A DNA stretch of 64,000 bases from a virus (lineage: Duplodnaviria; Heunggongvirae; Uroviricota; Caudoviricetes). The notes below the pieces were generated by a model. That model saw nothing but the letters and a program-made list of their open reading frames with translations, did no database searches and was not told the DNA's origin. How positions within the stretch are numbered: the stretch's first letter is position 1; every line of letters begins with the position of its first letter. Below, piece by piece: positions 698-43,341 of this stretch. A program made the translations under genes and the position numbers. The stretch is from the IMG/VR virus record IMGVR_UViG_644736364_000008; one strand, 5' to 3'.

Positions 698-1060
698 GGG
701 GCTGATTCTGGATTCGACGGGATTTGCGAAACCCAAGGTGCATGCCGAGGGGCGGTTGGCCTCGTAAAAAGCCGCAAAAAATAGTCGCAAACGACGAAAA
801 CTACGCTTTAGCAGCTTAATAACCTGCTTAGAGCCCTCTCTCCCTAGCCTCCGCTCTTAGGACGGGGATCAAGAGAGGTCAAACCCAAAAGAGATCGCGT
901 GGAAGCCCTGCCTGGGGTTGAAGCGTTAAAACTTAATCAGGCTAGTTTGTTAGTGGCGTGTCCGTCCGCAGCTGGCAAGCGAATGTAAAGACTGACTAAG
1001 CATGTAGTACCGAGGATGTAGGAATTTCGGACGCGGGTTCAACTCCCGCCAGCTCCACCA
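698..1060 (+). ncRNA. ssrA: tmRNA (transfer-messenger RNA, 363 nt)
   Basis: Begins GGGGCTGATTCTGGATTCGACGGG and ends GGTTCAACTCCCGCCAGCTCCACCA; internal tag-coding region (GCAAACGACGAAAACTACGCTTTAGCAGCTTAA) present; directly downstream of smpB. Confidence 0.93.
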
Positions 1061-1061
1061 A
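1016..1061. repeat. attL: 46-bp direct repeat (3' end of ssrA) flanking the P2-like prophage
   Basis: ATGTAGGAATTTCGGACGCGGGTTCAACTCCCGCCAGCTCCACCAA is repeated exactly at 35112-35157. Confidence 0.8.
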
Positions 1062-1070
1062 ATAAATCAA

Positions 1071-1103
1071 GGGGTTACGTAAAAGCGTAGCCCCTTTTTC
1101 TTT
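1071..1103 (+). terminator. Rho-independent terminator after ssrA
   Basis: GGGGTTACG / CGTAGCCCC stem followed by TTTTTCTTT. Confidence 0.5.
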
Positions 1104-1183
1104 GGTAGTGGCGGCAAAATGGCGACAGACTTTTGCGTCCATCTTGCCTGTCGCCATCTTGAAATCATGCAAAGAGGTTTCAC

Positions 1184-1666
1184 ATGGAAGAACTTCACTT
1201 TGTTTACATCAATGCAAATGGTCGTATCGGAGTTCACTCAATACAGAGCATCAGTTATAGCGAAAATCATATACAGGGCATTTGTAAGAACACCGATCGA
1301 ATAAAAACCTTCCGAAAAGACCGCATTCTTAAACAGTACGATTCACCAGAACAAGCCATTCAGGAATGCGCGTCATTCCTCCCCGAAAACTACTCACATC
1401 TCACTAAGCAGTCTGGTCCGAAAAAAAATACATTCGATGTGTGTTTCACCGGATTTAAGAAAGCAGATAAAGAAAGATTGGTTGATAAGGCGAATGAACA
1501 AGGATTAACGGTAAGAACCTCTGTAACCCAAAGCCTTCAGATGCTCTGTTGCGGTTACAATGCAGGCCCATCAAAAGTATCGGCAGCCAGGATGAAAGGC
1601 ACAATCATCATAGATGAGCCTGGCTTTATACATTTTCTTGAAACGGGTGAGATCCCAGATGAATAA
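1184..1666 (+). CDS. Hypothetical cargo protein with C-terminal BRCT-like domain
   Basis: ATG with AGAGG RBS; C-terminal 75 aa (CFTGFKKADKERLVDKANEQGLTVRTSVTQSLQMLCCGYNAGPSKVSAARMKGTIIIDEPGFIHFLETG) resembles the BRCT domain of NAD-dependent DNA ligase; lies between ogr and attL. Confidence 0.55.
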   Translation: MEELHFVYINANGRIGVHSIQSISYSENHIQGICKNTDRIKTFRKDRILKQYDSPEQAIQECASFLPENYSHLTKQSGPKKNTFDVCFTGFKKADKERLVDKANEQGLTVRTSVTQSLQMLCCGYNAGPSKVSAARMKGTIIIDEPGFIHFLETGEIPDE

Positions 1667-1692
1667 AAACCTGCCGTAGCAGGTTCTCTTTC

Positions 1693-1908
1693 TCAAAAAT
1701 TCATATGCCCCTGACCACCTGGCAATGGATGTGGAGGAGCAGTAGCAATCAGTGCGGGTGTCACAATAAACCGGACCACTGTTTCATGGGTAACAAAAGT
1801 GCTCCCGCAGTTAATATTTTGGCACTGGCAGTAACGCTCTTTGGTGCTTTCAGTTACTTGAAAACTGCTCCTTGTGTGTGCCGCATGACCACACTTTGGA
1901 CAATTCAT
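1693..1908 (-). CDS. ogr: Ogr/Delta-family zinc-finger late transcription activator
   Basis: MNCPKCGHAAHTRSS...TKERYCQCQNINCGSTF...PHPLPGGQ matches P2 Ogr (CxxC...CxxxxC pattern); start taken at internal Met of the 87-aa ORF. Confidence 0.8.
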   Translation of the reverse strand: MNCPKCGHAAHTRSSFQVTESTKERYCQCQNINCGSTFVTHETVVRFIVTPALIATAPPHPLPGGQGHMNF

Positions 1909-1979
1909 CATATCCAGATCCCTACCTTTGCTATCAGAATCATTGTAATGATACACAAAATATCAATATTGAGAACACT

Positions 1980-13741: not shown

Positions 13742-15442
13742 ATGGAACACTTAAGACAACTGCAAAATAAAACTTCCCTGTTAGAAAAGTACGGGACTAG
13801 TAACGCACATCTTTTATGGTCATTAGGTCTTTACTTAGATGAATCCGATTTTGATAAGCTAGCATCTGATGGACTTACTGATGGTGGAAACGATAAGAAA
13901 ATAGACTTCATTACCGTAATTAATTCAACGTTATTTATTGCTCAGGGTTACTACTGCAATCAGCAAGCACTTAAAATAGTTGCGCCTGCAAATAAAGCTT
14001 CTGACTTAAACACTGCTTTAGCGTGGATTATGGCAGGCTCAGGAGAGTCTCCAAATGCAAAATTAAGAGCAAAAATTTCTGAGGTTAGAAAATTAATTGA
14101 TGATAACGAAATTGAAGCTGTTGAATTATTATATATCCATAATTGTGCCGAATCTGAGCAGGTTAAAACTGAGCTTGAAACTTGTCGTGACTATCTAGCA
14201 GGTAGATTTGCAGACAAAGAAATTGAGGTAACTTACAGAGAACTTGGTGTTAATAGTCTTGAAAAATTGTATATTGCGCTATCACAACAAATTGTTGTGA
14301 CTGACAATATAAAGTTCAATGGCGAACTTATAAATTCTGTACAAGGTGATGGCTGGACTTCACATGTTGGCTTTGCAAACGGCACTTGGCTAAATTATTT
14401 ATACAAAAATTATGGAGCAGAATTATTTTCTGCTAATTATAGGGGGTTCATGGGATTAAATAAGAGAAGAAAAATAAACTCATCAATTAAGAATACCGCA
14501 GAAACATCCCCAAAAGACTTCTTTGTCTTTAACAATGGTGTATCAATCCTAACAACAAAATTCAACAAAGAAAAAGGGTTGTTGGAAGGAGTTTCAATCA
14601 TAAATGGAGCTCAAACCACTGGTTCTATTGGTTCAGTTCAAGATATACAAAAATTAGATGGCCTAAAAGTCCTTTGTAAGGTTATTGAATGTAATGATGC
14701 GGACAAAGTAAAAAAAATAGTCCAGTATAATAATACTCAGAATCATATTACAACCTGGGATCACTACTCTAACAGCACAGAACAAAAACAGGTGGCAGAA
14801 GAATTTTCCACTCTTGGTTATACATATTCACTGAAACGCGGCTTCGAAAATACTGGTTCTTTATTTGGCATTGAGTCTGTTGCTCAACCGCTGATAGCGT
14901 TACATGGGGATTATGTTAGCGCCAATAGAGGTAAAAACTACGTTTTCGATACAAAATCAGCCTATGACAATGCCTTTCATGATTCGAAAGCCCAGCATAT
15001 TTTATGTGCTTACACTATTTCAAAAGCTATAGAAAAAGTAAAATCTCAAATCCGTGCAAAAGAGAATAAAATTAAAGTAGATGAGGATAACTTATTATTC
15101 CTCCAAAATTTAAAGTCTCGATTCTTTTTAATATCCGTCATCGGAGAAATACTTGAAGAATTAACAGATAAACCTTTGAACAAGAAGAAAATAAAATATA
15201 AATATGATACAGCATTATCTAAAAATAACTCTCTGGATGATTTAATCGACCTTTGGACACCAGTTATAACTGCGATATTACCACATGTTATCCGTGTTTC
15301 AGGTCAAGATTTAACCACCTACTTATCTGTAACAGACAACCCGTTATCTATCGTATCAAAGGAAGTTAAAAACATATTAACATCCTTAAAAGCGTTCCAA
15401 CCGATTGAGCCATTAATTACTCTTTCAAATCACCTTGAATAA
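13742..15442 (+). CDS. Cargo protein, 566 aa, candidate abortive-infection (AIPR-like) protein
   Basis: Low-GC ORF on the opposite strand between V and S; contains FFVFNNGVSILTT...INGAQTTGSIG, reminiscent of an NGxQT core; own AT-rich upstream region. Confidence 0.6.
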   Translation: MEHLRQLQNKTSLLEKYGTSNAHLLWSLGLYLDESDFDKLASDGLTDGGNDKKIDFITVINSTLFIAQGYYCNQQALKIVAPANKASDLNTALAWIMAGSGESPNAKLRAKISEVRKLIDDNEIEAVELLYIHNCAESEQVKTELETCRDYLAGRFADKEIEVTYRELGVNSLEKLYIALSQQIVVTDNIKFNGELINSVQGDGWTSHVGFANGTWLNYLYKNYGAELFSANYRGFMGLNKRRKINSSIKNTAETSPKDFFVFNNGVSILTTKFNKEKGLLEGVSIINGAQTTGSIGSVQDIQKLDGLKVLCKVIECNDADKVKKIVQYNNTQNHITTWDHYSNSTEQKQVAEEFSTLGYTYSLKRGFENTGSLFGIESVAQPLIALHGDYVSANRGKNYVFDTKSAYDNAFHDSKAQHILCAYTISKAIEKVKSQIRAKENKIKVDEDNLLFLQNLKSRFFLISVIGEILEELTDKPLNKKKIKYKYDTALSKNNSLDDLIDLWTPVITAILPHVIRVSGQDLTTYLSVTDNPLSIVSKEVKNILTSLKAFQPIEPLITLSNHLE

Positions 15443-24307: not shown

Positions 24308-25717
24308 TTACTCATCTACTCTGATTTTTTGTTTTTTATTATTTTGAGTTAAGACATTTATGGTAATAGATGTATACGGATGAAAGTCAGGCACTATACT
24401 TTTAACCTCTCCATTTTCAAGAAAATGATGTGCTATTGAAGGAAATAAATCAGGATCTACAGGATATTTAGCATTAGGATTATGATACATATTTAAACCT
24501 TCTGCCCATGTTTCTGTAATATCGCCTTCTTTCACTTCAAAACTAAATGCTGCTGGATATAATGCCTCTGGGTCATGATCATGGCAGTAACCACTCCTAA
24601 ATAATCTAAGGTCACTTCTTCCAAAACCAGCCAGTTTTCCCATCCGATTAAACTTCGATATAGTACCACTATTAGAACTAAGGACGGCCGAAATATTTTC
24701 AGACTCATCCAAGAAGAAAAAGCCTGAAGGAATTTCCTTTTTCTCAAATTGATGCGATATAATTTTCTTAGTTGCTAAACTGTAACATCCATCTTCAGAT
24801 TTAACATGCTCATAGCGAATACCATAAAGATACTGCCAAAGTGCACTATGGGACCAAATCATAGAGTTTGGTTCATGAAAATCAGCAATTGCGAAAATTA
24901 AAGGATTCCCCTTAACATGTTCTAGATCCCAGTATCGAGTTTTCTTTTTCAGTTTAGAATAGAGAGAACTTCCAAATTTAATCGGCATATAATTCTCTAT
25001 TTTCTCTAGCAATTCTTCCTTACTTTTAGGTTCAGATAGCATTTCAGATGATTGATTAATATCATTCCCTGTTGGATTAACCGTTACAGCTTCAATGCAA
25101 ATAGTATTACCATACTTACGTGCCACATAATCAGGGGCATTAAACTGCCTATCTAGCCAAAAGTGTTCCTCTCGTAAATATGCGAAAAGATATAACTCCC
25201 ATAGCCGGGCATCAAAACCTGTTGTCTGAAACTGCTCTATAAAATTCCCGTCGACATCCTCAAAATGATTCATCATTTCCTTGATTATCCCTGTTGCAGG
25301 CGACCAGTTCGCATATTTACCAAATAATGAAAAATGATGATGAAGTTTATCTGGTGTAACTATAGGTGTGAATAAATCCATTGCTTTATAAGTTTCATCA
25401 CCTTGTGGAAATACTTTTACGTTTAATTTAGTATGCTTCCGCATTAATTTCTTTAGTTTTGCTCGTGCAGAATTCATTTCTGAAACACTAGTAAATAGGT
25501 CAATACATCTATATCTCCCACTTAAGTCTCTTGCTAAAACAATACCGCTATAATCTTCATCGATTTGATCCAATAATAGTGCCCCTAGCAGGAACTCTCT
25601 CGGACTACAGTACCACTCAAACTCATAGCCTAAAAGTTCAGTATTTGGCATTCTGGTCCAATCAACAAAAGCATTAAACCTCTCTTTACTCATTTTTTTT
25701 ATATCAAGAAAAGACAT
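24308..25717 (-). CDS. Hypothetical cargo protein, 469 aa (no recognisable motif)
   Basis: Low-GC ORF between portal gene Q and cos; no P-loop or nuclease motif detectable by eye. Confidence 0.6.
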   Translation of the reverse strand: MSFLDIKKMSKERFNAFVDWTRMPNTELLGYEFEWYCSPREFLLGALLLDQIDEDYSGIVLARDLSGRYRCIDLFTSVSEMNSARAKLKKLMRKHTKLNVKVFPQGDETYKAMDLFTPIVTPDKLHHHFSLFGKYANWSPATGIIKEMMNHFEDVDGNFIEQFQTTGFDARLWELYLFAYLREEHFWLDRQFNAPDYVARKYGNTICIEAVTVNPTGNDINQSSEMLSEPKSKEELLEKIENYMPIKFGSSLYSKLKKKTRYWDLEHVKGNPLIFAIADFHEPNSMIWSHSALWQYLYGIRYEHVKSEDGCYSLATKKIISHQFEKKEIPSGFFFLDESENISAVLSSNSGTISKFNRMGKLAGFGRSDLRLFRSGYCHDHDPEALYPAAFSFEVKEGDITETWAEGLNMYHNPNAKYPVDPDLFPSIAHHFLENGEVKSIVPDFHPYTSITINVLTQNNKKQKIRVDE

Positions 25718-26038: not shown

Positions 26039-26272
26039 TTAATGCAGCCAGCTGTCGTCTTCCCACACCTTCTGCATAATTTTCATCACTTGTTTTCTTT
26101 CTTCGTCCAGTTGCAGTCCGGTTAGTTCCACACCGTTAGAGCTACCTTTGCGAATGCGAATTACCGTTTTGGGATACAGGGGGCGCAGATTGCGGTAAAG
26201 CTCGGATTCAAGGGCGTCCAGGGTAGACTGGCTAATCTTCTGCTCTTTATCGATCATTATTTCAATGCGCAT
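26039..26272 (-). CDS. DinI-family protein
   Basis: MRIEIMIDKEQKISQSTLDALESEL...DSWLH resembles DinI (MRIEVTIAK...); start taken at internal Met of the 101-aa ORF. Confidence 0.65.
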   Translation of the reverse strand: MRIEIMIDKEQKISQSTLDALESELYRNLRPLYPKTVIRIRKGSSNGVELTGLQLDEERKQVMKIMQKVWEDDSWLH

Positions 26273-26624: not shown

Positions 26625-26981
26625 TTAATACAGGTTCCGCCACTGATCATCTTCCTGCAAACGCTGGTTCCGATAGAAGATACGCAGGCCTGCTCCTGAC
26701 GGAATACTGCCTCCGCGAAGGAGTAAATCGACCTCTTTCTCGCTGCCATCAAATCCTCTGGACTTCAGCTCATACACGAGCTGCAGTCGCTGATGGTCTG
26801 TAATTCGCTGTTTGTAGTCTTTACGCCGTTTCGGTTTCACCAGGCGTAACCTTGCTGCCAGTTCCCGGCGCTCTTTTTTGCTCATACTGTGCAGGTAATC
26901 GTGCAACTCCTTGTCATCCATGCTGGTAATGTCCGTTCTGGGGTCCCCATCAGCTGATTTATCTTTCTCCTGTTGGTTCAA
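26625..26981 (-). CDS. 118-aa ORF, possibly the displaced C-terminal part of replication protein A
   Basis: Begins at a TTG right at the A stop; becomes in-frame with A if one copy of the 26-bp tandem repeat is removed. Confidence 0.45.
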
Positions 26982-29065
26982 ATTTTCAGCAAGGGGACAG
27001 TTATTGCCACGAGTCCAAGGGGACAGTTATTGCCACGAGTCCAAGGGGCGCAAGCGCCCTGGTCGGCTGCCGCCTCCTGAATGTCAACGGCCTTACGAAC
27101 CATTTTCCACTTCACCGCATGAGTGCAGATCTTGCCCTCTGCAATGGGTGACCAGATGCCATAAATACGAATACCGTGATCGCCATAGGCGGTCGGCTCT
27201 TCGTTGATTTCATAAGCGGTTCTGATGAGGTGATATTTGCGGGGAACCAGTACGCCGCCCTGCTTCATGATGTAGGTGGCAAAACAACCAGCATCAGCAG
27301 CGGCTAGGATGGCATCAAGGCGCGGGTTATCCAGTACCGGCGCACCTGCTTTTTTGTCCCCCTGTTGCCTTGCCGCCTGACCAGCCAGCAATCGCAGTTC
27401 ACGGTAAGCCTGACGCCCCGGAATGCCAAAGAAGCGGAATTGCTGAACACGATGCAGAGACGCCCAGGCATTAACGTATTCAGCGTTATCACGCAGGGAT
27501 TTACCCGTTTCCTTGCTGATCTCGCCAGCCAGACCACGCCCGTCAATGTTCTTACTGATGTATTTCGCGATGTAGCTTGTTGGCGTACCTTTGCGCGGGT
27601 TTATCAGCTCAGACTTAAAGCGTGGTTCCGTGTTATTACCCAGCTCCTCGCGGTCTTCACGAATGGCAAACTTACGCAACAAAGCAGTAATGGCGCGGCG
27701 ATCTTTTTTGCGCATAAAACACAACAGGTGCCAGTGAACTGTACCGTCATGATGCGGCTCAGCCACCCGCACGCCATACCAGCGTAATCCGGCTTTGTGC
27801 ATCGCCTTACGAAATGCAGCAAACATACCGACCAGATAATCACTGCTTTGTCTTACCGTCGCATTTGTCCAGGTCGGGTTGGGCCTGCCGTTATTTAGCG
27901 TGGAATGGAAACGTGACGGACAGGTGATGGTGTAGAAAACGGCGCAGTCACCGCGCATTTCCGCGATAAGCTCCAGACCTTTAACACAGGCCATCATCTC
28001 ATTGCGGCGATGCGCAGGGTTGCTGCTGCTGGCGTTTACCACGTCTTCCATATCCAGCGTGTCGCCGTCTTCGTTCACCAGTTCATGAGAACGGAAAAAC
28101 TCCAGCGACTTACGGCGCTGCTCACGTTTATGCATCACGGCTTCATAGCTGACATAGGGAGATGCTTTTTTGCTGACCAGGCAAACAGCACGCAACTGCT
28201 CTTCCCGCCATTCGCAACGCATCTTCCATAATTTCCGATACCACCAGTCGGCGCATAACATACGCGCCAGCGAACCCGGAATGAGTTCATAAGGCACGGG
28301 TTTACGGCGGTTTCTTTTCCGACGGAGTTGCTCAAACGCAGGCGGGATAACATCCAGACGCAGGGTTTCCGCTGCCACCTTTTCCCATGTTTTGCGGATT
28401 TCTTCTGGCTTAATGTCATCGGTGGCATACAAATCACCACAAGCTGCATCAAGGCACATGCTCATATGCGCGGCGACAAGGGTAGACAGGCGCTTCACCT
28501 GATCCTGACTCATTTCAGGCAGGATCAGCAGGCCGTCCAGCCCTTCATGGCTTGCCATAAAGCGAAAAGAAGTGGATAGCTGACAGTCGCGTACATGCTC
28601 CAGTCGTTCCAGACATGGCTTAATCGTCTCACGCAAATAGCGGGAATAAGCCTTTGGCCTGCCCAGGCTGCTGAAGTATTCAATACGTTGCATCAGCGGC
28701 TTGCTGATATGGGAAGGCTGGGCGTTAACGTCCGCCAGAATGACCATGTCTGGATTAAAACGCTGCTGCTCATGCGCCAGCTTTGCCCGGCTAATGAGCT
28801 TATCCTGCTCCATTTCGCGTTGGACAGGATCACGGGATTCATTAAAGAAATAACGCTCCCAGGCCTGATCACTCAGTGCCTCGCGGCGCAGCTGTTCCTG
28901 CTCGTTATCGGCAGCGTACAGAGTGATCAGGTTTGAAAGCGCAGAAACCGGCGCGACTTCCGCCGGGTCCAGATAAGGGTTAATGGCCTTTTTCGGGCTG
29001 TTCCATGAGAACGCTGCGGCAGCCTCGTTAAAGCCGCAGCAGTTGTTCATATCGGCATGACTCAT
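26978..29065 (-). CDS. Replication initiation endonuclease A (rolling-circle, P2 gpA-like)
   Basis: 695-aa ORF containing the YIAKYISK active-site tyrosine pair. Confidence 0.85.
26991..27048. repeat. Perfect 26-bp tandem duplication (2.2 copies) at the 3' end of gene A
   Basis: AAGGGGACAGTTATTGCCACGAGTCC repeated head-to-tail, then AAGGGG. Confidence 0.85.
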
Positions 29066-32112: not shown

Positions 32113-32745
32113 ATGTTAAACATCAGAATGGGTTCCGATACGGGAGGTAAGGCAGCTATTGAGAGGCTGCTTGAGGCTTATGGATTCACAACTAAGCAGG
32201 CATTAAGCGAGCACCTGAATGTCTCAAAAAGTACTATGGCAAACAGAGTGTTACGTGACAGTTTTCCTGCTGACTGGATAATTCAGTGTGCACTAGAAAC
32301 CGGTGTTTCGTTACTTTGGTTAGCCACTGGACAGGGAAGCATGAAAGAAGGATACGAGTCTGAGAAAAGATCTCATAACGAGAACAAACAAGCAATTAAA
32401 CCGTTATCCAAACTCATAACTCCATCTATTCCTAAAGGAACCTTGGAAAATGGACAACTCAGTATTGATGAAGAGATTTTCCTAGACCACAGCATATTAC
32501 CTGCAGATTATGAAGAATCGATGTTCTTAGAAACCCCTACTGATTGTTATCTCATCGATAAATCAGTTAAACAAGTCAGCAATGGATTCTGGCTTATCAA
32601 TATTGATGGAATGATTATTATTGCAAAAATCATGCGGATTCCCGGCAATAAGATTGTAGTAAATCAAGATGAAGCGTCTTTCGAGTGCTCTGCCGATGAT
32701 GTGGAAGTTATTGGGCGTGCAGTCAAAGTAATAAAGAGTATCTAA
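32113..32745 (+). CDS. cI: CI immunity repressor (186 type)
   Basis: 210-aa ORF with N-terminal HTH-like region, upstream of int. Confidence 0.75.
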   Translation: MLNIRMGSDTGGKAAIERLLEAYGFTTKQALSEHLNVSKSTMANRVLRDSFPADWIIQCALETGVSLLWLATGQGSMKEGYESEKRSHNENKQAIKPLSKLITPSIPKGTLENGQLSIDEEIFLDHSILPADYEESMFLETPTDCYLIDKSVKQVSNGFWLINIDGMIIIAKIMRIPGNKIVVNQDEASFECSADDVEVIGRAVKVIKSI

Positions 32746-32747
32746 AC

Positions 32748-33767
32748 ATGACTGTCAGAAAACAGCCAAACGGTAAATGGTTGTGCGAGTGCTATCCCAA
32801 TGGACGCAATGGCAAGCGCGTGCGTAAGCAATTTGCTACGAAAGGCGAAGCCATTGCTTTTGAAAGCTTCACAATGGAAGAAGTGAACAAAAAACCATGG
32901 CTGGGGGAAAAGGAAGATCGGCGACACCTATCAGAATTAATTGAGCAGTGGTATTCCCTGTATGGTCAAACACTCGCAGACCCCAAGCGCCTCATAGCGA
33001 AACTTAGAATTATCTGTAATGGTCTAGGCGATCCCATCGCTTCAGAACTGACAGCCGGTGACTTTACGAAATACCGCGAAGCACGGTTAAAAGGTGAAGT
33101 ACGAAATGAAGATGGCACGTTTATGTCGCCCGTTAAGCCCCGCACGGTAAACCTTGAACAGCGCAATCTATCATCTGTTTTTGGTACACTGAAAAAGCTG
33201 GGCCACTGGTCAGCCCCCAACCCGCTTGCTGGGCTGCCAACATTTAAAATTGCTGAGAGTGAATTGGCGTTCCTGACCCCGGAAGAAATTAAACGTCTGC
33301 TGGATGCCTGCGCCGATTCTCAAAGCTCCAGCCTGCTTTTGATTGCAAAAATATGCCTGGCCACCGGCGCACGCTGGAGCGAAGCCGAAAACCTGCAGAG
33401 TCATCAGGTATCAAAATACCGTATCACTTATACCAAGACCAAAGGCAAGAAAAACCGAACTGTGCCTATTTCTAAGGATTTATATGAAGAACTGCCTAAG
33501 AATAGGGGGAAGTTATTCACCCCATGCAGAAAAGCCTTTGAGCGTGCAGTAAAGCGAGCCGGTTTAGAACTACCAGAAGGCCAATGTACCCATGTTCTGC
33601 GCCATACATTTGCCAGTCATTTTATGATGAACGGTGGAAATATACTGGTACTGCGCGATATTCTTGGACATGCCGATATAAAAATGACGATGATTTACGC
33701 TCATTTTTCCCCAGATCATCTTGAAGATGCAGTAACTAAAAACCCATTAGCAACCTTGATGGATTAA
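32748..33767 (+). CDS. int: Tyrosine integrase
   Basis: 339 aa with HVLRHTFASH...LGHADIKMTMIYAHF catalytic-region motifs. Confidence 0.9.
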   Translation: MTVRKQPNGKWLCECYPNGRNGKRVRKQFATKGEAIAFESFTMEEVNKKPWLGEKEDRRHLSELIEQWYSLYGQTLADPKRLIAKLRIICNGLGDPIASELTAGDFTKYREARLKGEVRNEDGTFMSPVKPRTVNLEQRNLSSVFGTLKKLGHWSAPNPLAGLPTFKIAESELAFLTPEEIKRLLDACADSQSSSLLLIAKICLATGARWSEAENLQSHQVSKYRITYTKTKGKKNRTVPISKDLYEELPKNRGKLFTPCRKAFERAVKRAGLELPEGQCTHVLRHTFASHFMMNGGNILVLRDILGHADIKMTMIYAHFSPDHLEDAVTKNPLATLMD

Positions 33768-33771
33768 GCAC

Positions 33772-34995
33772 ATGCGCAACATTATCGAATTAGAACAGAT
33801 ATCGGAAGAACTAAAAAAACATGAACTATTGCAACCCCCATTCATTGCCGAGGGAAAACTAATTTCTGACTTTTCTAAGAGAGTCGAGTGCTATTTAGAA
33901 TTAATTGACTCCATTAGAAATAAATATCCTGACAACGAGATAATTAAACAAGTAAAGATTCGCACAAAATCAATAATATATTTATCTGATAAAATAATAG
34001 AAACTCTTAAGCTATTTTTAATAGGAAATGTTAAAGAAGCTTATAAAAAATTCGATTTGGCAATTACCAAGTCATCAATGCATACTCATCTTTATAAGAT
34101 GACTGTTCCTCTAACTAAATTATGCAACCCACACACCCCTTTATTTCGCGTAAGGAAAAGTGAGTGCATCCTAAAACAAAGAGAAGAATTATTTCATATA
34201 CCATTTAAAAATAGACATTTAGTTAGCGCACAAAGATTTTCTGTATCCGGTCTTCCATGTTTATATCTTGGAACATCAATATTTGTATGTTGGCAAGAAA
34301 TGGGAAAACCTGACTTTGATAAACTTTACATATCTTCCTTCATATCCGATAAAGAAAATTCAAATATAAGAATTTTAGATCTTGGGTACAATTTAACATC
34401 TGCACTTCGTACAAAACCGGGAGATCTTTGGTATTCATTCGAACAAGGTTCAGATGATGATTACGATCTAAATAATGATAATTTCATGGATCAAATTAAT
34501 GATAAAATTTCAAAGTTGATTGCATGGCCTTTAGTCCTTGCATGTAACTATACAAAAGATAATGAAAACGCAAGTTTTAATAAAGAATACATAATACCAA
34601 ACCTATTAATGCAATGGATTAGTAGTGACAGAAACAAAAATATATCAGGGATATCGTATCGATCAACAAAGATATTAAACCAAAAAGATAGCGATATTGG
34701 GATTAATGTAATTATCCCCCCAAAAATAGAAAACATAGTTGAAACCAATGATACCCACTGTCCTGTTTTAAAAAAAATATTTAGAGTTACAAACCCTGTT
34801 TCCTGGACTGTGTTTAGTACACTAGAAGCCACCCCCTATCTATACAAAAATAATTTTAATTTTTCGACCTATAATCCCGCAAAAGGATGGATTGAAGACT
34901 TTGATGAATCCCTTGTTGAACATTATGAAAATACCACTTTTAGAAAAGTTGAACTCCTTATTCATCAAATGATGAAGTATGAATATTTAAAATAA
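33772..34995 (+). CDS. RES-domain protein (407 aa), candidate NAD+-targeting toxin/abortive-infection effector
   Basis: LFRVRK...AQRFSVSGLPCLYLGTSIFVCWQE...IRILDLGYNLTS parallels RES toxin motifs (YRY...GGRWNPP..FPAIYLADS...E...LAVLDLT in MbcT); low-GC; 4 bp after int stop. Confidence 0.6.
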   Translation: MRNIIELEQISEELKKHELLQPPFIAEGKLISDFSKRVECYLELIDSIRNKYPDNEIIKQVKIRTKSIIYLSDKIIETLKLFLIGNVKEAYKKFDLAITKSSMHTHLYKMTVPLTKLCNPHTPLFRVRKSECILKQREELFHIPFKNRHLVSAQRFSVSGLPCLYLGTSIFVCWQEMGKPDFDKLYISSFISDKENSNIRILDLGYNLTSALRTKPGDLWYSFEQGSDDDYDLNNDNFMDQINDKISKLIAWPLVLACNYTKDNENASFNKEYIIPNLLMQWISSDRNKNISGISYRSTKILNQKDSDIGINVIIPPKIENIVETNDTHCPVLKKIFRVTNPVSWTVFSTLEATPYLYKNNFNFSTYNPAKGWIEDFDESLVEHYENTTFRKVELLIHQMMKYEYLK

Positions 34996-35111
34996 GAGTG
35001 GCGGCATAATGGCGGCAAAGAGTTAAAAACACATAAAACAAGGTAATACATCGTAAACTTAAGTGATTGAAAATTAACATAAATAGTTGTTTTGCAACAT
35101 GTTATAATGGT

Positions 35112-35157
35112 ATGTAGGAATTTCGGACGCGGGTTCAACTCCCGCCAGCTCCACCAA
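35112..35157. repeat. attR: second copy of the 46-bp ssrA 3'-end repeat
   Basis: Exact repeat of 1016-1061. Confidence 0.8.
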
Positions 35158-35284
35158 TCATGATTGGACGGTGTAAGGACAACACCAACAAAAACAGGAA
35201 GTTAGAAGTCTCAGCAGGACACCGACCAGACGGTGAGGAGACATAAAAGGATACGCAAAGGAGCCGCGGCTCCGAAGTGAAATG

Positions 35285-35310: not shown

Positions 35311-35735
35311 CTTCTTCTCTTTAGCCTGATTCGACACTCTCAATGCGGCCATAAACAACAACCCACTTTTCTTATACCGTAGCCTGTCCCCCTCTTCCTG
35401 CTTTCTAACCATAACAGATGTGAGCGTTTGCTATGAGCGATATATAGTCATTCGTACCCTCCGATACTAATCATCACAGAAATTAATATATTCATTCCTT
35501 ACTGAAAAGCTATGAAGTAGATATATAGGATTGGGGCGCGTATGGCACTGGACAGTTATGCATCTCCGAATATTATTCCGGAGCTAAGACAACCGAATGC
35601 CGCAGCAGGTAAGATCACGCTAGGGGGGCTGGACAGAATGGCTGTTACGCCCAGTGTGAAGAAAAGAAGGCTAAGTATGGTAGAATTTCCATACGCACAG
35701 ACCTTGTTATCCGACTATACAGCCTGGAAGGCACT

Positions 35736-36524
35736 ATGACAAATCTACAACTGGAAGAAAGATTTAGGGCGCTTGAGAAAGATTACGATGCGCTCATTTC
35801 CACAAAATATACTGCGCAGAACGTTCTCACTCACACTATGGAAACCTATGTTGATTCTGGTAAATATAAAAACTGGATCGCCAGAGTGAAAAAGTTAATA
35901 GAGGACAGCTACGGAAAAGAGTCTGATTATTACAATGACTTCAATACTGTAAACAGCAGGTGGTCTTCTAATTACAATACACTGATCAAAAGTTATAAAC
36001 CGTTGTTTGATGCGGCGAGAGATGATCTTGCGCACTCTGCTGTCAGTACTAATACTCCTCAAGAAGGTTCGCCGCTGAGCCTCGTACTTAATATTCTTAA
36101 CAGGTTTCCGACCTTTGTTCGCCAGTTAAAGAGGCGGTACAACGGCCGTGCGCCGCTTGAAGTTAATGATGAGTATGACGTACAGGATTTGATTTATGCA
36201 CTGCTGACGCTTCATTTTAATGATATTAGGGCGGAAGAGTATACCCCCAGCTTTGCGGGCGCGGCCTCAAGACAGGACTTTCTTTTGAAAAAAGAGAAAA
36301 TTGTGATAGAGGTGAAGAAAACCCGTGAATCTCTGGGAGCGGGTAAAGTTGGTGGAGAGTTGCTTATTGATATGGCGCGCTACCGCGCTCACCAAGACTG
36401 CGATACGTTGATCTTGTTTGTATATGACCCGGATTGCTACATAAATAATCCTTTGGGCGTGAAAACCGATCTGGAATCTAAAGACGCGGAAGGAAAAGTG
36501 AAGGTTGTTATTGCGCAGTTCTGA
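35736..36524 (+). CDS. Hypothetical protein with PD-(D/E)xK-like nuclease signature
   Basis: 262 aa; GGAAGG RBS; C-terminal half has DIRAEEYTP ... KIVIEVKKT (D...E-x-K pattern); N-terminal coiled-coil. Confidence 0.5.
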   Translation: MTNLQLEERFRALEKDYDALISTKYTAQNVLTHTMETYVDSGKYKNWIARVKKLIEDSYGKESDYYNDFNTVNSRWSSNYNTLIKSYKPLFDAARDDLAHSAVSTNTPQEGSPLSLVLNILNRFPTFVRQLKRRYNGRAPLEVNDEYDVQDLIYALLTLHFNDIRAEEYTPSFAGAASRQDFLLKKEKIVIEVKKTRESLGAGKVGGELLIDMARYRAHQDCDTLILFVYDPDCYINNPLGVKTDLESKDAEGKVKVVIAQF

Positions 36525-36557
36525 CACGCTTAAGTGTCACCTTACAGGATTAGGTTT

Positions 36558-36606
36558 GCGGCCGTGCCAGCAGGACGAGCATGAAAAAGGCCGCTGGCAC
36601 GGCCGG
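36558..36606. terminator. Long hairpin between convergent genes
   Basis: 12-bp perfect inverted repeat GGCCGTGCCAGC ... GCTGGCACGGCC. Confidence 0.4.
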
Positions 36607-36611
36607 ATTTG

Positions 36612-36905
36612 TCATCTTTGCCAGGTCAAATCAAAATCTACGTGAAAATCCGCAGGCTTAAGCTCGCAACTGCCACCACGCCCAATTAACGACGTTATGT
36701 TTACAACGTTTGAACCTGTTGAGATGGCAAGTTGAGTGTCATCTGTAAACGTGATGATTAGCATTTCAGTCTGATGAACCTGTACTCCAGTTTTCTGAAA
36801 ACCAATCTGGACAGATTTCACCGTTTTCCCAACCATTTCACGGGCTTGATTGATAGAGTAATTAGCTTCAACTTGTAGGTCATTCCTGAACTTGGGTAGT
36901 GTCAT
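36612..36905 (-). CDS. Hypothetical small protein (97 aa)
   Basis: ORF downstream of, and same strand as, the GIY-YIG gene. Confidence 0.45.
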   Translation of the reverse strand: MTLPKFRNDLQVEANYSINQAREMVGKTVKSVQIGFQKTGVQVHQTEMLIITFTDDTQLAISTGSNVVNITSLIGRGGSCELKPADFHVDFDLTWQR

Positions 36906-37115
36906 TTTACATCCTCTTTAGTGAAGTTTTCGCTATTTAAATCAGCAGCATTCCTTTTAAATCACTGGCATGTCAGCAGTGGATAGTCTGAGTGTAACGT
37001 CCAGTGAGGGGAATAAATATTGGTCAGACTTTGCACAAAAGAGCCAACTATCGCGGGCTCTCTCTCATCATGTGCGAAAATTGACCACAATATGAAATCC
37101 AGTTCCATTCCGAAA

Positions 37116-37940
<825 letters not shown>

Positions 37941-38043
37941 TCAATTGACAACTTATAATCCCTACTAGTTAGCATTATGATTTCCAGAGTGAGGAATATA
38001 AAAATCTCTGTTTCTGGCACATAACAGCCCTTAAGATCGTAGC

Positions 38044-38096
38044 TCGCCATCATGGGGTGTCGGGGGGCGGAGGTTCAAATCCTCTCGTGCCGACCA
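38044..38096 (+). tRNA. Partial tRNA-Pro (3' fragment only; anticodon region to CCA)
   Basis: CATGGGGTGTCGGGGGGCGGAGGTTCAAATCCTCTCGTGCCGACCA matches the 3' part of tRNA-Pro(GGG); no complementary 5' acceptor strand (CGGCACG) upstream. Confidence 0.6.
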
Positions 38097-38110
38097 AAAA
38101 TCCCTTAAGA

Positions 38111-38137
38111 ACCAGCCTATTATGGCTGGTTTTTTTA
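38111..38137 (+). terminator. Rho-independent terminator after the tRNA fragment
   Basis: ACCAGCC-TATTAT-GGCTGGT followed by TTTTTTT. Confidence 0.55.
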
Positions 38138-38337
38138 TGATTGTTTTTTATGCGGAGAAATACCGGGGAATAATTGGGGTAAAACACCTTTAGGCTATTC
38201 ACTTAGCCTACCACCATCAAAATCTTTCCGAATGTATCCATCTCTTTTTTCTTATGCAGCTAAAACGAAGTCTTGATACTGTTTATTTACACAGATAAGA
38301 ATAATACTGTCTACAAACGCAGTACAAAAGAAGTGTT

Positions 38338-38517
38338 ATGCGTATTGAGATCTCCATAGCCAAAGACAAAATGACCAAATGCCAAACGGCGCTGTGGACG
38401 CGTTAAAGGAAGAATTAACCCAACACATTGGCAAGCGTTATGACGATGTGGAGATGATCGTAAAAGCCACCAGCAACGATAGTTTTTCAGTTAGACATAC
38501 TGCAGATAAAGATTGAG
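38338..38517 (+). pseudogene. dinI-like gene interrupted by a frameshift
   Basis: Frame 1 [16 protein letters not shown]... stops after 22 codons; a shifted frame continues ...[32 protein letters not shown], together resembling DinI. Confidence 0.45.
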
Positions 38518-38880
38518 CTAAAACTTTCGTTCAGGAAACTCTGAATGATACCTGAGAGTCTACTGAAGAGTTGTTTGTTCACTAGTTAGCACGTAGGAAA
38601 TCATTCAATACTCGCACTATCGGAAGTTCACCAGCCAGTCGTAGCACGTCCTTGCAAACGACGTGCCTACGGTTTCAATCACCTCTCACCATCAATTCTA
38701 TCAATAATAATTAAACAGCGCCTAGACAAAATAAATAACAACAAGTCAACAACCTCGACAGGATGCCGATGGGATGATGAAGAGATAAGAAAGAATAACC
38801 AGTAAAGCCCTAAAACGTCAGCGTTCAGACGCGTTTTTTACTTAATCGGTAACAAATACGTTGTATCATAGCAAAATAAA

Positions 38881-40830
38881 ATGATTGTTCTAAATCAGAT
38901 TAACTCCTCACTTTTGTACAATGTCGCTTACAGGTATACCATGAAATCCGAGACGCTAACTGTCCAACAACTTTTTCAAGACCGCCGACAATACTGTGTT
39001 CCATTCTATCAACGTGCCTATGTATGGACTCAGCAAGACCAGTGGTCAGCTCTACTGGAGGATATCCTAGAGAAAGTACAATCCCGGCTCTCGGGTACAA
39101 AACCAACTCCCCATTTCCTTGGTGCGGTTGTACTGGAACCTCAATCAAAAAAAGGATTATTAGGTGTAGATTCCATACATATTATTGATGGTCAGCAACG
39201 ATTGACCACTCTTCAATATGTTCTGGCATCCATCCGATTAGCATTACGTGCTACGGATCTTTCCAGCTTAGAGGCTCTCATTTCGCCTTGCCTGAAAAAC
39301 TCAAACGAAGACACAATGCGAAATAAAGAAGTAGAACGCTTCAAACTGTGGCCAACTTTTCGGGATCAAACTCATTTTATTCAAAGTTTTAATGTTGAAA
39401 ATATTGACGATCTCCGGGACGTATTCTCTGATAGTTTCACGCAGCATGGTACGTTGCGTAAGCATTTTAATCACCCGCCATCACTAGAAGCATTATGTTT
39501 TTTTACTGAAGCCTTTATAAAATGGATTAAAATAGAAAACCACTCACCACAAGAAAATGCTGTAGCTCTAATTGAGGCTGTCTTAACAGATCTGAAACTG
39601 GTAAGCATATTTCTCGAAGCTGAAGATGATGCCCAAATAATTTTTGAAACATTAAATGGGCGAGGGGCGGAACTTCATGCTACGGATCTTATTCGCAACT
39701 ATATCTTTATGTGCGCTGAGCATGAAAATATTAATGCTATTGAATTATATGAAAATGAGTGGAAGAGCTTTGAAGATAAATACTGGTCGGAAAAACAACG
39801 CCGTGGACGTATTAATAAACCACGCATGGAGTGGCTAGTACATGCGACATTGCAATCAGAAAGGCAACGTGAAATTGATCTGTCTCGCCTTTACAATGAG
39901 TATCGTGATTATGTAAGTAAGGACTTGTCTTCACAACGAGCAGATCTGCAAGTAAAGCGCCTCAAACAATATGCATCACAATATAAAGAATTGGTTGATG
40001 GTTTTGGCACAACCCCCATCTCACACTTTGGATATCGCATCGCAGACTATGATGTGACGACACTTTATCCGCTTGCTTTGTTCATTTCGATAGCTAACAT
40101 CGCTGATGATGAGAAAGCAGCCATGTATAATGATCTTGTCTCCTACGTAGTACGAAGAGCCGTATGTGGCCTGACGCCAAAGAATTACAACAATGTATTT
40201 ATGAATGTATTGCGGCACTTGGCTAAAACGGAAATTTCCAGTGTTGAGTTACGTAATATCCTCAATAACTTAAATGGCGAAGCCTCACGTTGGCCTGGTG
40301 ACTCAGAATTTCTCAACGCTTGCATCAATGCTCCACTTTATCCTGGCAGGCTCGACGCACCGAAAATGCGCTCAATGTTAACGGAACTTGAAAGAGAACT
40401 TTGTCGCCAAGTAAAGACAGAAAAGCCTGATGTTCCAAATCTTTCTAATCTCGATATCGATCATCTTATGCCTCAAAGTTGGTATTCCTGTTGGCCTCTC
40501 GAAAATGGTCGTATGGTGACAAATTCAGATGCTACGGTATTGAACCAAATTGTTCTGTCTGGAACCGATCTTACCCCTGAACAGCTACTGGTAAGGAAAC
40601 GGCAACAAGCGATATCTACTTTGGGAAATCTAACTTTGCTTAACCTTAGCGTAAACCGTTCTGTTCAGAATGCTGTATTTCTGAAAAAACGTGATGCTCT
40701 CATCGTCCACACCAATCTACGACTGAACATTCCACTTATAGTTAAGGATAAATGGGATGAGGATGAAATCCTGGAGCGGGGTAAAAAGTTGGGGGAAATT
40801 GCATTGAAAGTATGGCCAAAACACGATTAA
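38881..40830 (+). CDS. GmrSD-family type IV restriction endonuclease (DUF262 + DUF1524/HNH-like)
   Basis: N-terminal IIDGQQRLTTLQY (DGQQR motif) and C-terminal DIDHLMPQSW ... GNLTLLNLSVNRSVQN His-Me finger motifs; alternative start at 38941. Confidence 0.75.
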   Translation: MIVLNQINSSLLYNVAYRYTMKSETLTVQQLFQDRRQYCVPFYQRAYVWTQQDQWSALLEDILEKVQSRLSGTKPTPHFLGAVVLEPQSKKGLLGVDSIHIIDGQQRLTTLQYVLASIRLALRATDLSSLEALISPCLKNSNEDTMRNKEVERFKLWPTFRDQTHFIQSFNVENIDDLRDVFSDSFTQHGTLRKHFNHPPSLEALCFFTEAFIKWIKIENHSPQENAVALIEAVLTDLKLVSIFLEAEDDAQIIFETLNGRGAELHATDLIRNYIFMCAEHENINAIELYENEWKSFEDKYWSEKQRRGRINKPRMEWLVHATLQSERQREIDLSRLYNEYRDYVSKDLSSQRADLQVKRLKQYASQYKELVDGFGTTPISHFGYRIADYDVTTLYPLALFISIANIADDEKAAMYNDLVSYVVRRAVCGLTPKNYNNVFMNVLRHLAKTEISSVELRNILNNLNGEASRWPGDSEFLNACINAPLYPGRLDAPKMRSMLTELERELCRQVKTEKPDVPNLSNLDIDHLMPQSWYSCWPLENGRMVTNSDATVLNQIVLSGTDLTPEQLLVRKRQQAISTLGNLTLLNLSVNRSVQNAVFLKKRDALIVHTNLRLNIPLIVKDKWDEDEILERGKKLGEIALKVWPKHD

Positions 40831-41080
40831 TGCAATTAATAAAATGATTATAGTGGCCTTACATTAGTAAGGCCGCTACTCACTATTAAATACTTTAATT
40901 TGCATCAAGAACAGCAGTGTCAGCCCTAGGTCTCGGACTTTGTACCGCTTATCTTGTCTTCAAAAATCAGCTCGCATCCTGCACAGTTCAGCGCATTACG
41001 TTGTAGATCTGTGTTCTGGTCATTTGTTGACACACGTACATAGCCAATAAGCATGGTAGATCTCCCTGACAAAAGCAGGA

Positions 41081-41575
41081 ATGATGCCATTTGCTCGTTA
41101 TTTCTGCATTTTCATAAACGTTGGTTTGGGAGAAGCGGCAAAACGGAATGTGGGCAACGGGGAAAACCAAATCCCTGATATGTCTTTCTGGACGGTTACT
41201 GGTGGCAATGGAAATTTTGTGATTCGTCAACCTGACGGGCTAATCATTCAGATGGTTACTGTAAGTATAAGCGGCCCAGTGGCGATGAATGGAATGACTG
41301 ATAATGCTTATGCCATCACAGGTTCTAATAAGTCTTATATTGCCACAGCCACATTGCCCTTTGTATTTCCTAATAAGGTGCTGGGCGTTATCCCTCTGGT
41401 ATCAACAACAGCTTATGGTGGTGTATCCAGTAATATTACAGGTTCATACGCGACGGCGGTTTGTTCTTTTGCCGCTGTCAGGGGGAATAATACGATTGTG
41501 TTCAAAGTCGACAAACCACTGAATGCAGCCTTTCCTTCAGATACCAGCGTCTCAGCGTTAATCATTGGACGGTAA
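41081..41575 (+). CDS. Alternative tail-fibre C-terminal cassette (S'v-like)
   Basis: Gly/Ser/Thr-rich 164-aa ORF in inverted orientation; its codons 11-18 (FINVGLGE) carry the crossover site. Confidence 0.55.
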   Translation: MMPFARYFCIFINVGLGEAAKRNVGNGENQIPDMSFWTVTGGNGNFVIRQPDGLIIQMVTVSISGPVAMNGMTDNAYAITGSNKSYIATATLPFVFPNKVLGVIPLVSTTAYGGVSSNITGSYATAVCSFAAVRGNNTIVFKVDKPLNAAFPSDTSVSALIIGR

Positions 41576-41577
41576 TA

Positions 41578-43338: not shown

Positions 43339-43341
43339 GGA

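What the first reader, a model, noticed from the sequence alone, without database searches (positions are those of the whole stretch)
1184..1666. Small BRCT-domain protein at the ogr-attL end of the prophage
A 160-aa ORF between ogr and attL, convergent with ogr and separated from it by a hairpin, ends in a 75-aa segment closely matching the BRCT domain of NAD-dependent DNA ligases (xxFTGxx ... G..V..SV ... AG.SK...A ... IIDE..F..LL). The 80-aa N-terminal domain is unassigned. BRCT modules bind nicked DNA or phosphoproteins; a stand-alone BRCT protein as prophage cargo is unusual and could act on host repair or in superinfection exclusion.
Basis: partly seen in the sequence, partly recalled or inferred. 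Interest (0 to 1): 0.55.

Follow-up and report, generated by a model that had tools for sequence, protein, structure and literature searches.

The report
Prophage WYL–BRCT DNA-sensing accessory protein
The 160-residue gene at the ssrA end of this P2-like E. coli prophage is real phage cargo that joins a WYL (single-stranded-DNA-sensor type) domain to a ligase/RFC1-type BRCT domain; it belongs to a large, functionally untested family usually found just after the repressor gene of temperate phages, where genes that block other phages usually sit.

Summary

The protein is not unusual. It is PHROG 2561, mislabelled "DNA ligase" or "exonuclease". 170 of 5,426 complete E. coli genomes carry it, and about 2,700 50%-identity clusters match the profile. 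Fels-2 and RE2010, which share the attP arm, lack it, so it is accessory cargo.

In many relatives, from P2-like to lambdoid-type prophages, the gene follows the cI repressor on the same strand. About 30% of the best representatives carry membrane-spanning segments, and others are fused or adjacent to an unknown domain.

The BRCT phosphate pocket (T89, G90, K131) and the WYL motif are conserved.

Best reading (inferred, untested): a lysogen-expressed sensor of ssDNA next to a 5'-phosphate end that interferes with incoming or replicating foreign DNA. The main rival is a DNA-damage input to the lysis-lysogeny switch. I found no experimental study.

The parts
698..1060 (+). ssrA (tmRNA), the integration target. 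Its 3' end is rebuilt by phage DNA.
   Evidence: ARAGORN, tag ANDENYALAA; PGAP annotation.
1016..1062 (.). attL core: 47 bp identical to attR at 35112-35158.
   Evidence: The 32-mer matches at 1029-1060 and 35125-35156, with 0 expected by chance. The full extent was read from the sequence.
1069..1096 (+). Phage-supplied ssrA terminator hairpin with a T run. It lies between ssrA and the WYL-BRCT gene.
   Evidence: Terminator scan. dG -19.4, z -5.2. The stem covaries across 7 relatives.
1108..1128 (+). Probable integrase arm-type site (P' arm), GTGGCGGCAAAATGGCGACAG. A related copy, GTGGCGGCATAATGGCGGCAAA, lies at 34998-35019 in the P arm.
   Evidence: Invariant block in the alignment of 7 relatives. 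The repeat was read. Int binding itself is inferred.
1173..1177 (+). Shine-Dalgarno sequence AGAGG, 6 nt before the ATG.
   Evidence: Sequence. A purine-rich block is conserved at this position in relatives.
1184..1666 (+). WYL-BRCT gene: 160 aa, PHROG 2561, WP_000391794.1.
1184..1345 (+). WYL domain, residues 1-54: a five-stranded Sm/SH3-like barrel with the motif K41-T-F-R-K-D-R-I48.
1346..1432 (+). Linker, residues 55-83: two short helices, then a lower-confidence loop.
   Evidence: AF2 secondary structure. pLDDT is 68 for residues 71-80. pTM of 0.52 suggests the two domains are not rigidly packed.
1433..1648 (+). BRCT domain, residues 84-155, with the conserved phosphate-pocket residues T89, G90, K96 and K131.
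1668..1685 (.). Bidirectional terminator hairpin shared with the convergent ogr gene.
1693..1911 (-). ogr (late-gene activator), the first core phage gene at this end.
   Evidence: Pfam Ogr_Delta 1.5e-20; PGAP.
32113..33767 (+). cI repressor (32113-32745) and integrase (32748-33767). In the circular phage this operon points across attP toward the WYL-BRCT gene.
   Evidence: Pfam. The contiguous arrangement is seen in phage Cartapus and in Yersinia phage MLG42.
35112..35158 (.). attR core.

Best explanation
SHOWN:
- The ORF is an accessory (moron-type) gene of a P2/186-like prophage integrated in ssrA.
- It encodes a soluble two-domain protein: an N-terminal WYL domain joined by a flexible linker to a LigA/RFC1-type BRCT domain. 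It has no enzymatic or helix-turn-helix domain.

INFERRED FROM THE DOMAINS:
- The WYL barrel binds single-stranded nucleic acid, as in DriD, PafBC, CapW and Pif1.
- The BRCT pocket (T89-G90...K96...K131) binds a phosphate. By analogy with RFC1 and LigA this would be a DNA 5'-phosphate at a nick or a recessed end.
- Together they would recognise ssDNA next to a 5'-phosphorylated duplex end: gaps, resected or cohesive ends, or rolling-circle intermediates.

INFERRED FROM CONTEXT:
- Across the family the gene sits directly after the phage repressor on the same strand, so it should be made in lysogens.
- About 30% of relatives add membrane-spanning segments, and others add an unknown partner domain.
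- The most likely role is therefore a prophage-encoded exclusion or defence factor. It would bind the DNA of an incoming or replicating phage or other mobile element and block its circularisation, ligation or replication, or in the larger relatives trigger a membrane or partner-domain effector.
- In this lineage the gene has moved across attP. In the prophage it lies 124 nt downstream of ssrA, behind the ssrA terminator. Its expression there would depend on terminator read-through or on an unrecognised promoter.
For: Identity:
- PHROG 2561, 2e-77.
- AF2 model with pLDDT 91.9.

Conserved ligand sites over 167 domains:
- T89 91%, G90 96%, K131 96%, K/R96 92%.
- Y8 87%, [RK]41 83%, T42 82%, R47 78%.

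Accessory status:
- Fels-2 and RE2010 share the attP arm but run straight into ogr.
- Only 170 of 5,426 E. coli genomes carry it.
- It is present in free phage genomes.

Immunity-region position:
- Directly after cI in Vibrio PV94, Mannheimia PHL101 and L062 (cI-WB-int with a 3-nt gap), and in L012, L014 and L027-L029.
- After S24-type repressors in Pseudomonas and in L056, and after an HTH_3 repressor in L055.
- At least 15 of 48 genome loci in a crude survey have a recognisable repressor directly upstream.

Modularity:
- 44 of the 64 longer representatives have hydrophobic TM-like segments.
- Domain X is fused in some relatives and is a separate adjacent gene in L018 and L051.

Defence-type neighbours elsewhere:
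- AbiGi, MrcB_N-HNH and Mrr_cat.
- The same prophage carries PD-T7-1 and an AIPR protein at other cargo sites.
Against: - There is no experimental evidence of any kind. No DNA binding, expression or phenotype has been tested.
- The protein has no effector domain, so a stoichiometric-binding mechanism is assumed.
- It is not in PADLOC. Only its BRCT resembles the C-terminus of the candidate PDC-S48.
- In this window the gene is separated from the cI operon. It sits behind a strong terminator with no consensus promoter, so expression in the lysogen is unproven.
- TM calls rest on a simple hydropathy window.
- The repressor-neighbour survey used a small reference set, and about half of the loci remain unclassified.
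- BRCT pockets can also bind phosphoproteins.
Confidence: 0.4

Rival explanations
1. DNA-damage input to the lysis-lysogeny switch. The WYL domain senses damage-generated ssDNA, as it does in DriD, PafBC and CapW. The BRCT docks onto the repressor, another regulator or the damaged DNA, and so modulates prophage induction or the decision to lysogenise.
For: - The gene is tightly linked to cI on the same strand, often with gaps of 0-30 nt.
- The closest structural relatives of the WYL domain are ssDNA-activated damage regulators.
- A 2026 preprint independently notes cI plus BRCT-protein modules in the lysis-lysogeny regions of Roseobacter prophages. It interprets them, without a test, as DNA-damage responsive.
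Against: - No HTH or other DNA-sequence-reading domain is found in any of 57 extended relatives.
- Many partner repressors are S24 self-cleaving types that already sense RecA*.
- This prophage already has a Tum/DinI-like SOS antirepressor candidate.
- Membrane-spanning variants are hard to fit to a soluble regulator.
- The gene is dispensable in close relatives such as Fels-2.
- Here it is uncoupled from cI by attP.
Confidence: 0.22
2. Host-repair or ligase interference. A LigA-BRCT look-alike competes with host LigA (or with clamp or RecFOR-type factors) at nicks and gaps. This would alter nick sealing or RecA loading, to the benefit of the prophage or its host.
For: - The BRCT is closest in sequence to the LigA and RFC1 BRCTs.
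- BFVD hits are mostly the BRCT parts of NAD-dependent ligases.
- The phosphate pocket is conserved.
Against: - Sequence identity to LigA is low (about 20-25%).
- There is no evidence of interaction with LigA.
- Constant interference with an essential ligase in a lysogen would be costly.
- Context with repressors and with defence-type neighbours does not specifically point to repair.
Confidence: 0.13
3. A conserved chromosomal gene that merely flanks the attachment site, or a spurious ORF.
For: It abuts ssrA, and PGAP calls it 'hypothetical protein' in this strain.
Against: - It lies inside the att repeats.
- It is present in packaged phage genomes.
- It is absent from most E. coli genomes.
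- It is under strong purifying selection.
- It gives a confident two-domain fold.
Confidence: 0.01

Closest known systems
HTH-WYL-WCX regulators (DriD, PafBC, CapW, BrxR)
   Different: It has no HTH and no WCX domain; a BRCT follows the WYL instead. At 160 aa it is a small soluble protein, and it cannot be a sequence-specific transcription factor on its own.
BRCT domains of NAD-dependent DNA ligase (LigA) and of RFC1 (p140)
   Same: Same fold, and these are the best sequence-profile matches. The T-G...K phosphate-pocket residues are conserved. From my own knowledge, the RFC1 BRCT binds 5'-phosphorylated dsDNA ends through T415, G416, R423 and K458.
   Different: There are no ligase catalytic domains (adenylation, OB, Zn, HhH) and no clamp-loader AAA+ module. 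The database label 'DNA ligase' is therefore a misnomer.
Immunity-region exclusion genes of temperate phages (lambda rexAB, lactococcal Sie2009, S. thermophilus Ltp)
   Same: The same kind of genomic position: next to or co-directional with the repressor, accessory, and patchily distributed. A sizeable fraction of family members appear to be membrane proteins.
   Different: There is no sequence or fold relationship. The window's copy is soluble and has been displaced across attP. An exclusion phenotype has not been tested.
PADLOC candidate PDC-S48
   Same: Its C-terminal ~75 residues match this BRCT (E 1.8e-7 for the query; 53 of 54 relatives hit it).
   Different: The match covers only positions 324-406 of a 411-position profile. 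The rest of PDC-S48 is unrelated, so this protein is not a member.
Split NAD-ligase subunit B of T5-like phages (PDB 9hu3_B, Eps7 B2I4G9)
   Different: Those proteins pair with a catalytic subunit A. This prophage has no such partner, and its N-terminal domain is WYL.

Membership tests
BRCT domain (Pfam PF00533), LigA/RFC1 type | beta-alpha-beta-beta-alpha-beta-alpha fold | tested here: met
BRCT domain (Pfam PF00533), LigA/RFC1 type | Sequence-profile match above the curated threshold | tested here: inconclusive
   The query alone scores 19.5 bits against a 21.3 cut-off. 38 of 43 homologues hit the model, best 2e-6. The family profile hits LigA 1dgs at 3.5e-5 and RFC1 at 4e-5.
BRCT domain (Pfam PF00533), LigA/RFC1 type | Phosphate-binding pocket (S/T-G after beta1, Lys at the start of alpha2, a basic residue in alpha1) | tested here: met
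   T89 91%, G90 96%, K131 96% and K/R96 92% over 167 domains. Actual ligand binding was not tested.
WYL domain (Pfam PF13280) | Sm/SH3-like five-stranded barrel closest to known WYL domains | tested here: met
WYL domain (Pfam PF13280) | Sequence-profile match | tested here: inconclusive
   The query itself gives no hit. Pfam WYL hits 8/43 and 22/41 relatives, best 1.2e-8. PADLOC WYL models hit 31/54, best 8e-11. There is one weak PDB hit to a WYL motif (8bnv, E 1.7).
WYL domain (Pfam PF13280) | Binds single-stranded nucleic acid or a nucleotide ligand | not testable with these tools
   Needs EMSA or ITC. Only conservation of the basic motif is shown.
HTH-WYL-WCX transcription regulators | N-terminal (w)HTH DNA-binding domain and C-terminal WCX domain | tested here: not met
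   The protein is 160 aa with WYL at residue 1. No HTH is found in the query or in 57 extended relatives.
NAD-dependent DNA ligase (the database label for PHROG 2561) | Adenylation (KxDG), OB, Zn-finger and HhH domains | tested here: not met
   Only the BRCT part of ligases aligns. The protein is too short to hold the catalytic domains.
Known or candidate anti-phage systems in PADLOC v2 | Full-length match to a system protein | tested here: not met
   There is only a partial BRCT match to PDC-S48 and domain-level WYL matches.
Prophage superinfection-exclusion / immunity-region morons | Accessory gene co-directional with and adjacent to the repressor | tested here: inconclusive
   Met for many relatives. 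In this window the gene is separated from cI-int by orf407 and attP, and in the prophage it lies at the opposite end.
Prophage superinfection-exclusion / immunity-region morons | Expressed in lysogens and reduces infection by other phages | not testable with these tools
   Needs RNA-seq or 5'RACE and plaque assays.

The most novel reading that the evidence does not exclude
WYL-BRCT proteins are a previously unrecognised, widespread class of single-gene prophage immunity factors. They read a DNA structure (ssDNA adjoining a 5'-phosphate end) on invading or replicating foreign DNA. They then either block it directly, as the soluble form in this window would, or actuate a fused membrane or 'domain X' effector. 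In the ssrA-integrating P2-like lineage, integration places the gene behind the highly transcribed host tmRNA gene.
Probability: 0.3. Interest if true: 0.7.

Novelty: new variant of a known kind. Interest (0 to 1): 0.5.

Why it matters
If the inferred role is right, a very small protein with no enzyme would define a new way for prophages to protect their hosts: recognising a DNA structure rather than a sequence or a protein. It would also extend WYL-domain ssDNA sensing from transcription factors to a direct-acting module.

The family is abundant (about 2,700 50%-identity clusters, and 3% of complete E. coli genomes). It is cheap to test and is currently mislabelled as 'DNA ligase' or 'exonuclease' in phage records. 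Even the corrected annotation (WYL-BRCT, immunity-region accessory gene) is useful.

If the rival is right, it would be an SOS-independent damage sensor wired into lysis-lysogeny switches, which is also of interest.

Tried and rejected
- **Rosetta-stone test for HTH fusions.** I asked whether longer relatives are HTH-WYL-BRCT fusions, which would have tied the protein to cI. They are not; Pfam finds only BRCT and WYL in 57 extended relatives.
- **The neighbouring 407-aa ORF as a partner.** I tested whether this ORF (33772-34995) is related to the fused 'domain X' or to PDC-S48. There is no similarity, and the Yersinia phage has WB without it.
- **Domain X.** Its profile finds nothing in the PDB by sequence.
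- **WB-less P2 prophages in E. coli.** I first read the roughly 530 E. coli genomes that match only the first 62-68 nt as P2 prophages lacking WB. Inspection showed these are ends of CP4-57-type islands, so that count was dropped.
- **A promoter for the gene.** None of consensus type lies between the ssrA terminator and the ATG, and none is conserved in relatives. By eye I saw no LexA box.
- **Literature.** Six searches combining BRCT, WYL, prophage, P2-like, superinfection exclusion and lysogen found no functional study. A search for the RFC1 pocket residues found nothing, so those residue numbers rest on my memory.
- **afdb50 fold library.** It was unavailable.

Full report
**What is at the coordinates**

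The window starts with smpB (1-483) and ssrA (tmRNA, 698-1060). The last 47 bp of the ssrA region (1016-1062) recur at 35112-35158. These repeats bracket a roughly 34-kb P2/186-like prophage. It runs ogr, D, U, T, and the tail, lysis and head genes on one side, and A, cII, apl, cI and int on the other.

The window is 100% identical to E. coli MS7163 over the query stretch, and 99% identical to 'Escherichia phage 500465-1'.

The flagged ORF is at 1184-1666 (+) and encodes 160 aa. An AGAGG Shine-Dalgarno lies 6 nt upstream. It converges on ogr (1693-1911) across a hairpin at 1668-1685, which folds well on both strands.

**Is it a real gene, and is it phage or host?**

It is a real gene:
- Homologues at about 70% identity in Klebsiella, Citrobacter, Erwinia, Tatumella, Plesiomonas and a Yersinia phage give dN of about 0.2 with saturated dS. 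dN/dS is 0.06 where it can be computed.
- AlphaFold2 with a 43-sequence alignment gives pLDDT 91.9.

It is phage DNA:
- It lies inside the att repeats.
- It is present in sequenced phage genomes (Cartapus, Yersinia phage MLG42). There it sits between int/attP and ogr/D.

It is accessory:
- Fels-2 and RE2010 share the first 68 nt after ssrA (the terminator plus the start of the arm-type site at 1108-1128), then run straight into ogr.
- Only 170 of 5,426 complete E. coli genomes carry it.

**Domain anatomy**

*C-terminal half.* The query alone is just under Pfam's BRCT threshold. The rest of the evidence is clear:
- 38 of 43 homologues hit BRCT.
- The family profile hits the BRCTs of T. filiformis LigA (3.5e-5) and RFC1 (4e-5).

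It is a WYL domain:
- The model is a five-stranded barrel.
- Pfam WYL hits 8/43 and 22/41 relatives.
- PADLOC's WYL models hit 31/54 relatives, best 8e-11.

The two domains are joined by a linker of lower confidence, and pTM is 0.52, so they are probably mobile relative to each other.

The WYL+BRCT combination is listed as an existing architecture in Makarova et al. 2014 (PMC4012209). No function is given there.

**Conserved sites**

I aligned 167 domains from about 150 representatives clustered at 50% identity.
- The most conserved BRCT positions are T89 (91%), G90 (96%), K131 (96%) and a basic residue at 96 (92%). From established knowledge of BRCT domains, these form the canonical phosphate pocket. 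The equivalent RFC1 residue numbers are from my memory and were not checked here.
- The conserved WYL positions are Y8 and the [RK]41-T-F-[RK]-x-D-R-[IV]48 strand.

Both presumed ligand sites are therefore under selection.

**How common it is, and what it is called**

- The protein matches PHROG 2561 end to end (2e-77). That family is labelled 'DNA ligase'.
- RefSeq phage records call it 'DNA ligase' or 'putative exonuclease'. Newer PGAP runs call it 'BRCT domain-containing protein'.
- A full scan of 1.84 billion representative proteins finds 2,740 clusters at E<=1e-3 and 210 at E<=1e-30.

The family is catalogued and common. The 'ligase' name is wrong, because the catalytic domains are absent.

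**Genomic context across the family**

*P2-like phages.*
- In Vibrio PV94, Mannheimia PHL101, Brenneria, Hafnia, Rahnella, Acerihabitans and a metagenomic contig (L062), the gene directly follows cI on the same strand. It often lies inside a cI-WB-int operon with gaps of 0-15 nt.
- In a Burkholderia P2-like phage it also lies downstream of the XRE repressor on the same strand, with one hypothetical gene between them.
- In the enterobacterial ssrA-integrating lineage the order in the circular genome is cI, int, (orf407), attP, WB, all on one strand. Integration therefore moves the gene to the far end of the prophage, 124 nt after the tmRNA 3' end.
- That ssrA-to-WB arrangement recurs in five genera.

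*Other prophage types.*
- In Pseudomonas and in metagenomic contigs, the gene follows an HTH+S24 (lambda cI-like) repressor divergent from cro, or an HTH_3 repressor.
- A crude survey found a recognisable repressor immediately upstream on the same strand in at least 15 of 48 genome loci. Six more loci were of the ssrA/ogr type. The rest could not be classified with my small reference set.

*Non-prophage neighbours.* A few copies sit next to AbiGi, MrcB_N-HNH or Mrr_cat genes.

**Architectural variation**

Of the best 150 representatives, 86 are stand-alone (<=200 aa) and 64 are longer.
- 44 of the 64 longer ones have one to five hydrophobic, TM-like segments at the N- or C-terminus. This rests on a simple hydropathy window.
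- Two such proteins that I looked up also sit right after a repressor.
- Others carry an unknown ~230-residue 'domain X' (W.F.V...LDIK...WTQGH.F.F). This domain also occurs as a separate adjacent gene in L018 and L051, so the two are functionally linked.
- Some have extra BRCT or WYL-BRCT repeats.
- None has an HTH or a recognisable enzyme domain.

A conserved sensor-like module combined with interchangeable membrane or unknown partner domains is typical of conflict systems. This is an inference.

**Expression in this window**

A strong phage-supplied ssrA terminator lies between ssrA and the gene (1069-1096, dG -19.4, stem covarying in relatives). It is followed by an invariant probable Int arm-type site (1108-1128), about 50 variable nt and the Shine-Dalgarno sequence. 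No consensus sigma-70 promoter is found or conserved there.

Expression in the lysogen would therefore need terminator read-through from ssrA or a non-consensus promoter. This is unresolved, and it weakens any claim about function in this particular prophage.

**Most likely mechanism**

*Shown:* a soluble WYL-BRCT protein that is accessory prophage cargo.

*Inferred from the domains:* WYL binds single-stranded nucleic acid and BRCT binds a phosphate, most plausibly a DNA 5'-phosphate. The pair would recognise gaps, resected or cohesive ends, or rolling-circle intermediates.

*Inferred from context:* a function expressed in the lysogen. The best fit is exclusion or defence against incoming or replicating foreign DNA. 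I put this at about 0.4.

*Rivals:*
- A DNA-damage input to the lysis-lysogeny switch, at about 0.22. A 2026 preprint suggests this, untested, for cI+BRCT modules in Roseobacter prophages. Against it: no HTH in any relative; S24 repressors and a Tum/DinI-like gene (26039-26272) already provide damage sensing; membrane-spanning variants fit poorly.
- Interference with host LigA or gap repair, at about 0.13.
- A chromosomal or spurious ORF is excluded.

The remaining probability is 'something else'.

**Comparison with known families**

- By fold, conserved pocket and profile evidence from relatives, the protein belongs to the BRCT and WYL domain families. The query alone does not reach either Pfam threshold.
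- It is not an HTH-WYL-WCX regulator, not a DNA ligase, and not a member of any PADLOC system. Only its BRCT resembles the C-terminus of the candidate PDC-S48.
- By position it resembles rexAB or Sie2009-type immunity-region genes, but it shares no homology with them.

**Novelty and score**

The domain combination and the family are already catalogued, so the sequence itself is not new. I found no functional study in six literature searches.

What this analysis adds:
- the WYL assignment;
- the link to the repressor/immunity region across unrelated temperate phages;
- the membrane-spanning and domain-X variants;
- the conserved ligand pockets.

I rate it a new variant of a known kind, with interest 0.5. 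It is a tractable and abundant unknown with a concrete, testable hypothesis, but so far nothing about it is surprising at the level of evidence.

Noticed in passing
window 24308-25717 (-): A 469-aa ORF between the portal gene and the DinI-like/replication genes matches PADLOC PD-T7-1 end to end (1.4e-196). It is a known anti-phage gene sitting where P2 carries tin/old (that position is from my memory). PGAP calls it hypothetical.
   Followed up: partly
window 13742-15442 (+): PGAP annotates an AIPR family (abortive-infection-type) protein here. It is inserted on the opposite strand among the baseplate and tail-completion genes, so it is a second defence-type cargo site in the same prophage.
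   Followed up: no
window 33772-34995 (+): A 407-aa ORF lies between int and attR. It matches PHROG 7835 (unknown function, 5e-180) and has no Pfam or PADLOC hit. Phage Cartapus labels it 'putative RES protein, NAD+ binding domain'. It is absent from Yersinia phage MLG42 and unrelated to the WYL-BRCT partner domains. It is another uncharacterised cargo gene flanking attP.
   Followed up: partly
window 26625-29065 (-): The replication endonuclease (gene A) is annotated as frameshifted in MS7163. The ORF listing shows it split into ORFs of 118 and 695 aa. The prophage may be replication-defective.
   Followed up: no
window 26039-26272 (-): A DinI-like ORF (PHROG 189) lies at the position of the 186 Tum antirepressor, which suggests the prophage is of the SOS-inducible 186 type.
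   Followed up: no
window 1108-1128 and 34998-35019: Related repeats, GTGGCGGCAAAATGGCGACAG and GTGGCGGCATAATGGCGGCAAA, flank the att core. The first is invariant in 7 relatives from several genera. They are probably integrase arm-type sites, and the first lies just upstream of the WYL-BRCT start.
   Followed up: partly
window 35100-35108 (+): An extended -10-like element, TGtTATAAT, lies in the P arm about 4 nt before the att core (TGtTATAGT in phage Cartapus). It points across the core. In the circular phage it would point toward the terminator and the WYL-BRCT gene. It was not picked up by the consensus scan because there is no -35 element.
   Followed up: partly
window 35700-50000+: Beyond attR lies a second mobile region: a GIY-YIG protein (37116-37889), a DinI-like pseudogene, a DUF262 protein (38941-40830, a type often linked to restriction), a recombinase fragment, and then Mu-like tail and baseplate genes. 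ssrA therefore carries tandem elements here.
   Followed up: no
L018 6502-7098; L051 4587-5036; proteins P0154, P0183, P0185, P0130, P0177, P0123: An unknown ~230-aa domain (W.F.V...LDIK...WTQGH.F.F..GD) is either fused to the WYL-BRCT module (PHROG 36782 type) or encoded by the adjacent gene. It has no Pfam hit and no PDB sequence match.
   Followed up: partly
L002 4523-4777 (Yersinia phage MLG42 record): The record annotates a + strand 'hypothetical protein' where tblastn shows ogr on the - strand (83% identity). This is probably a strand mis-annotation in that record.
   Followed up: no
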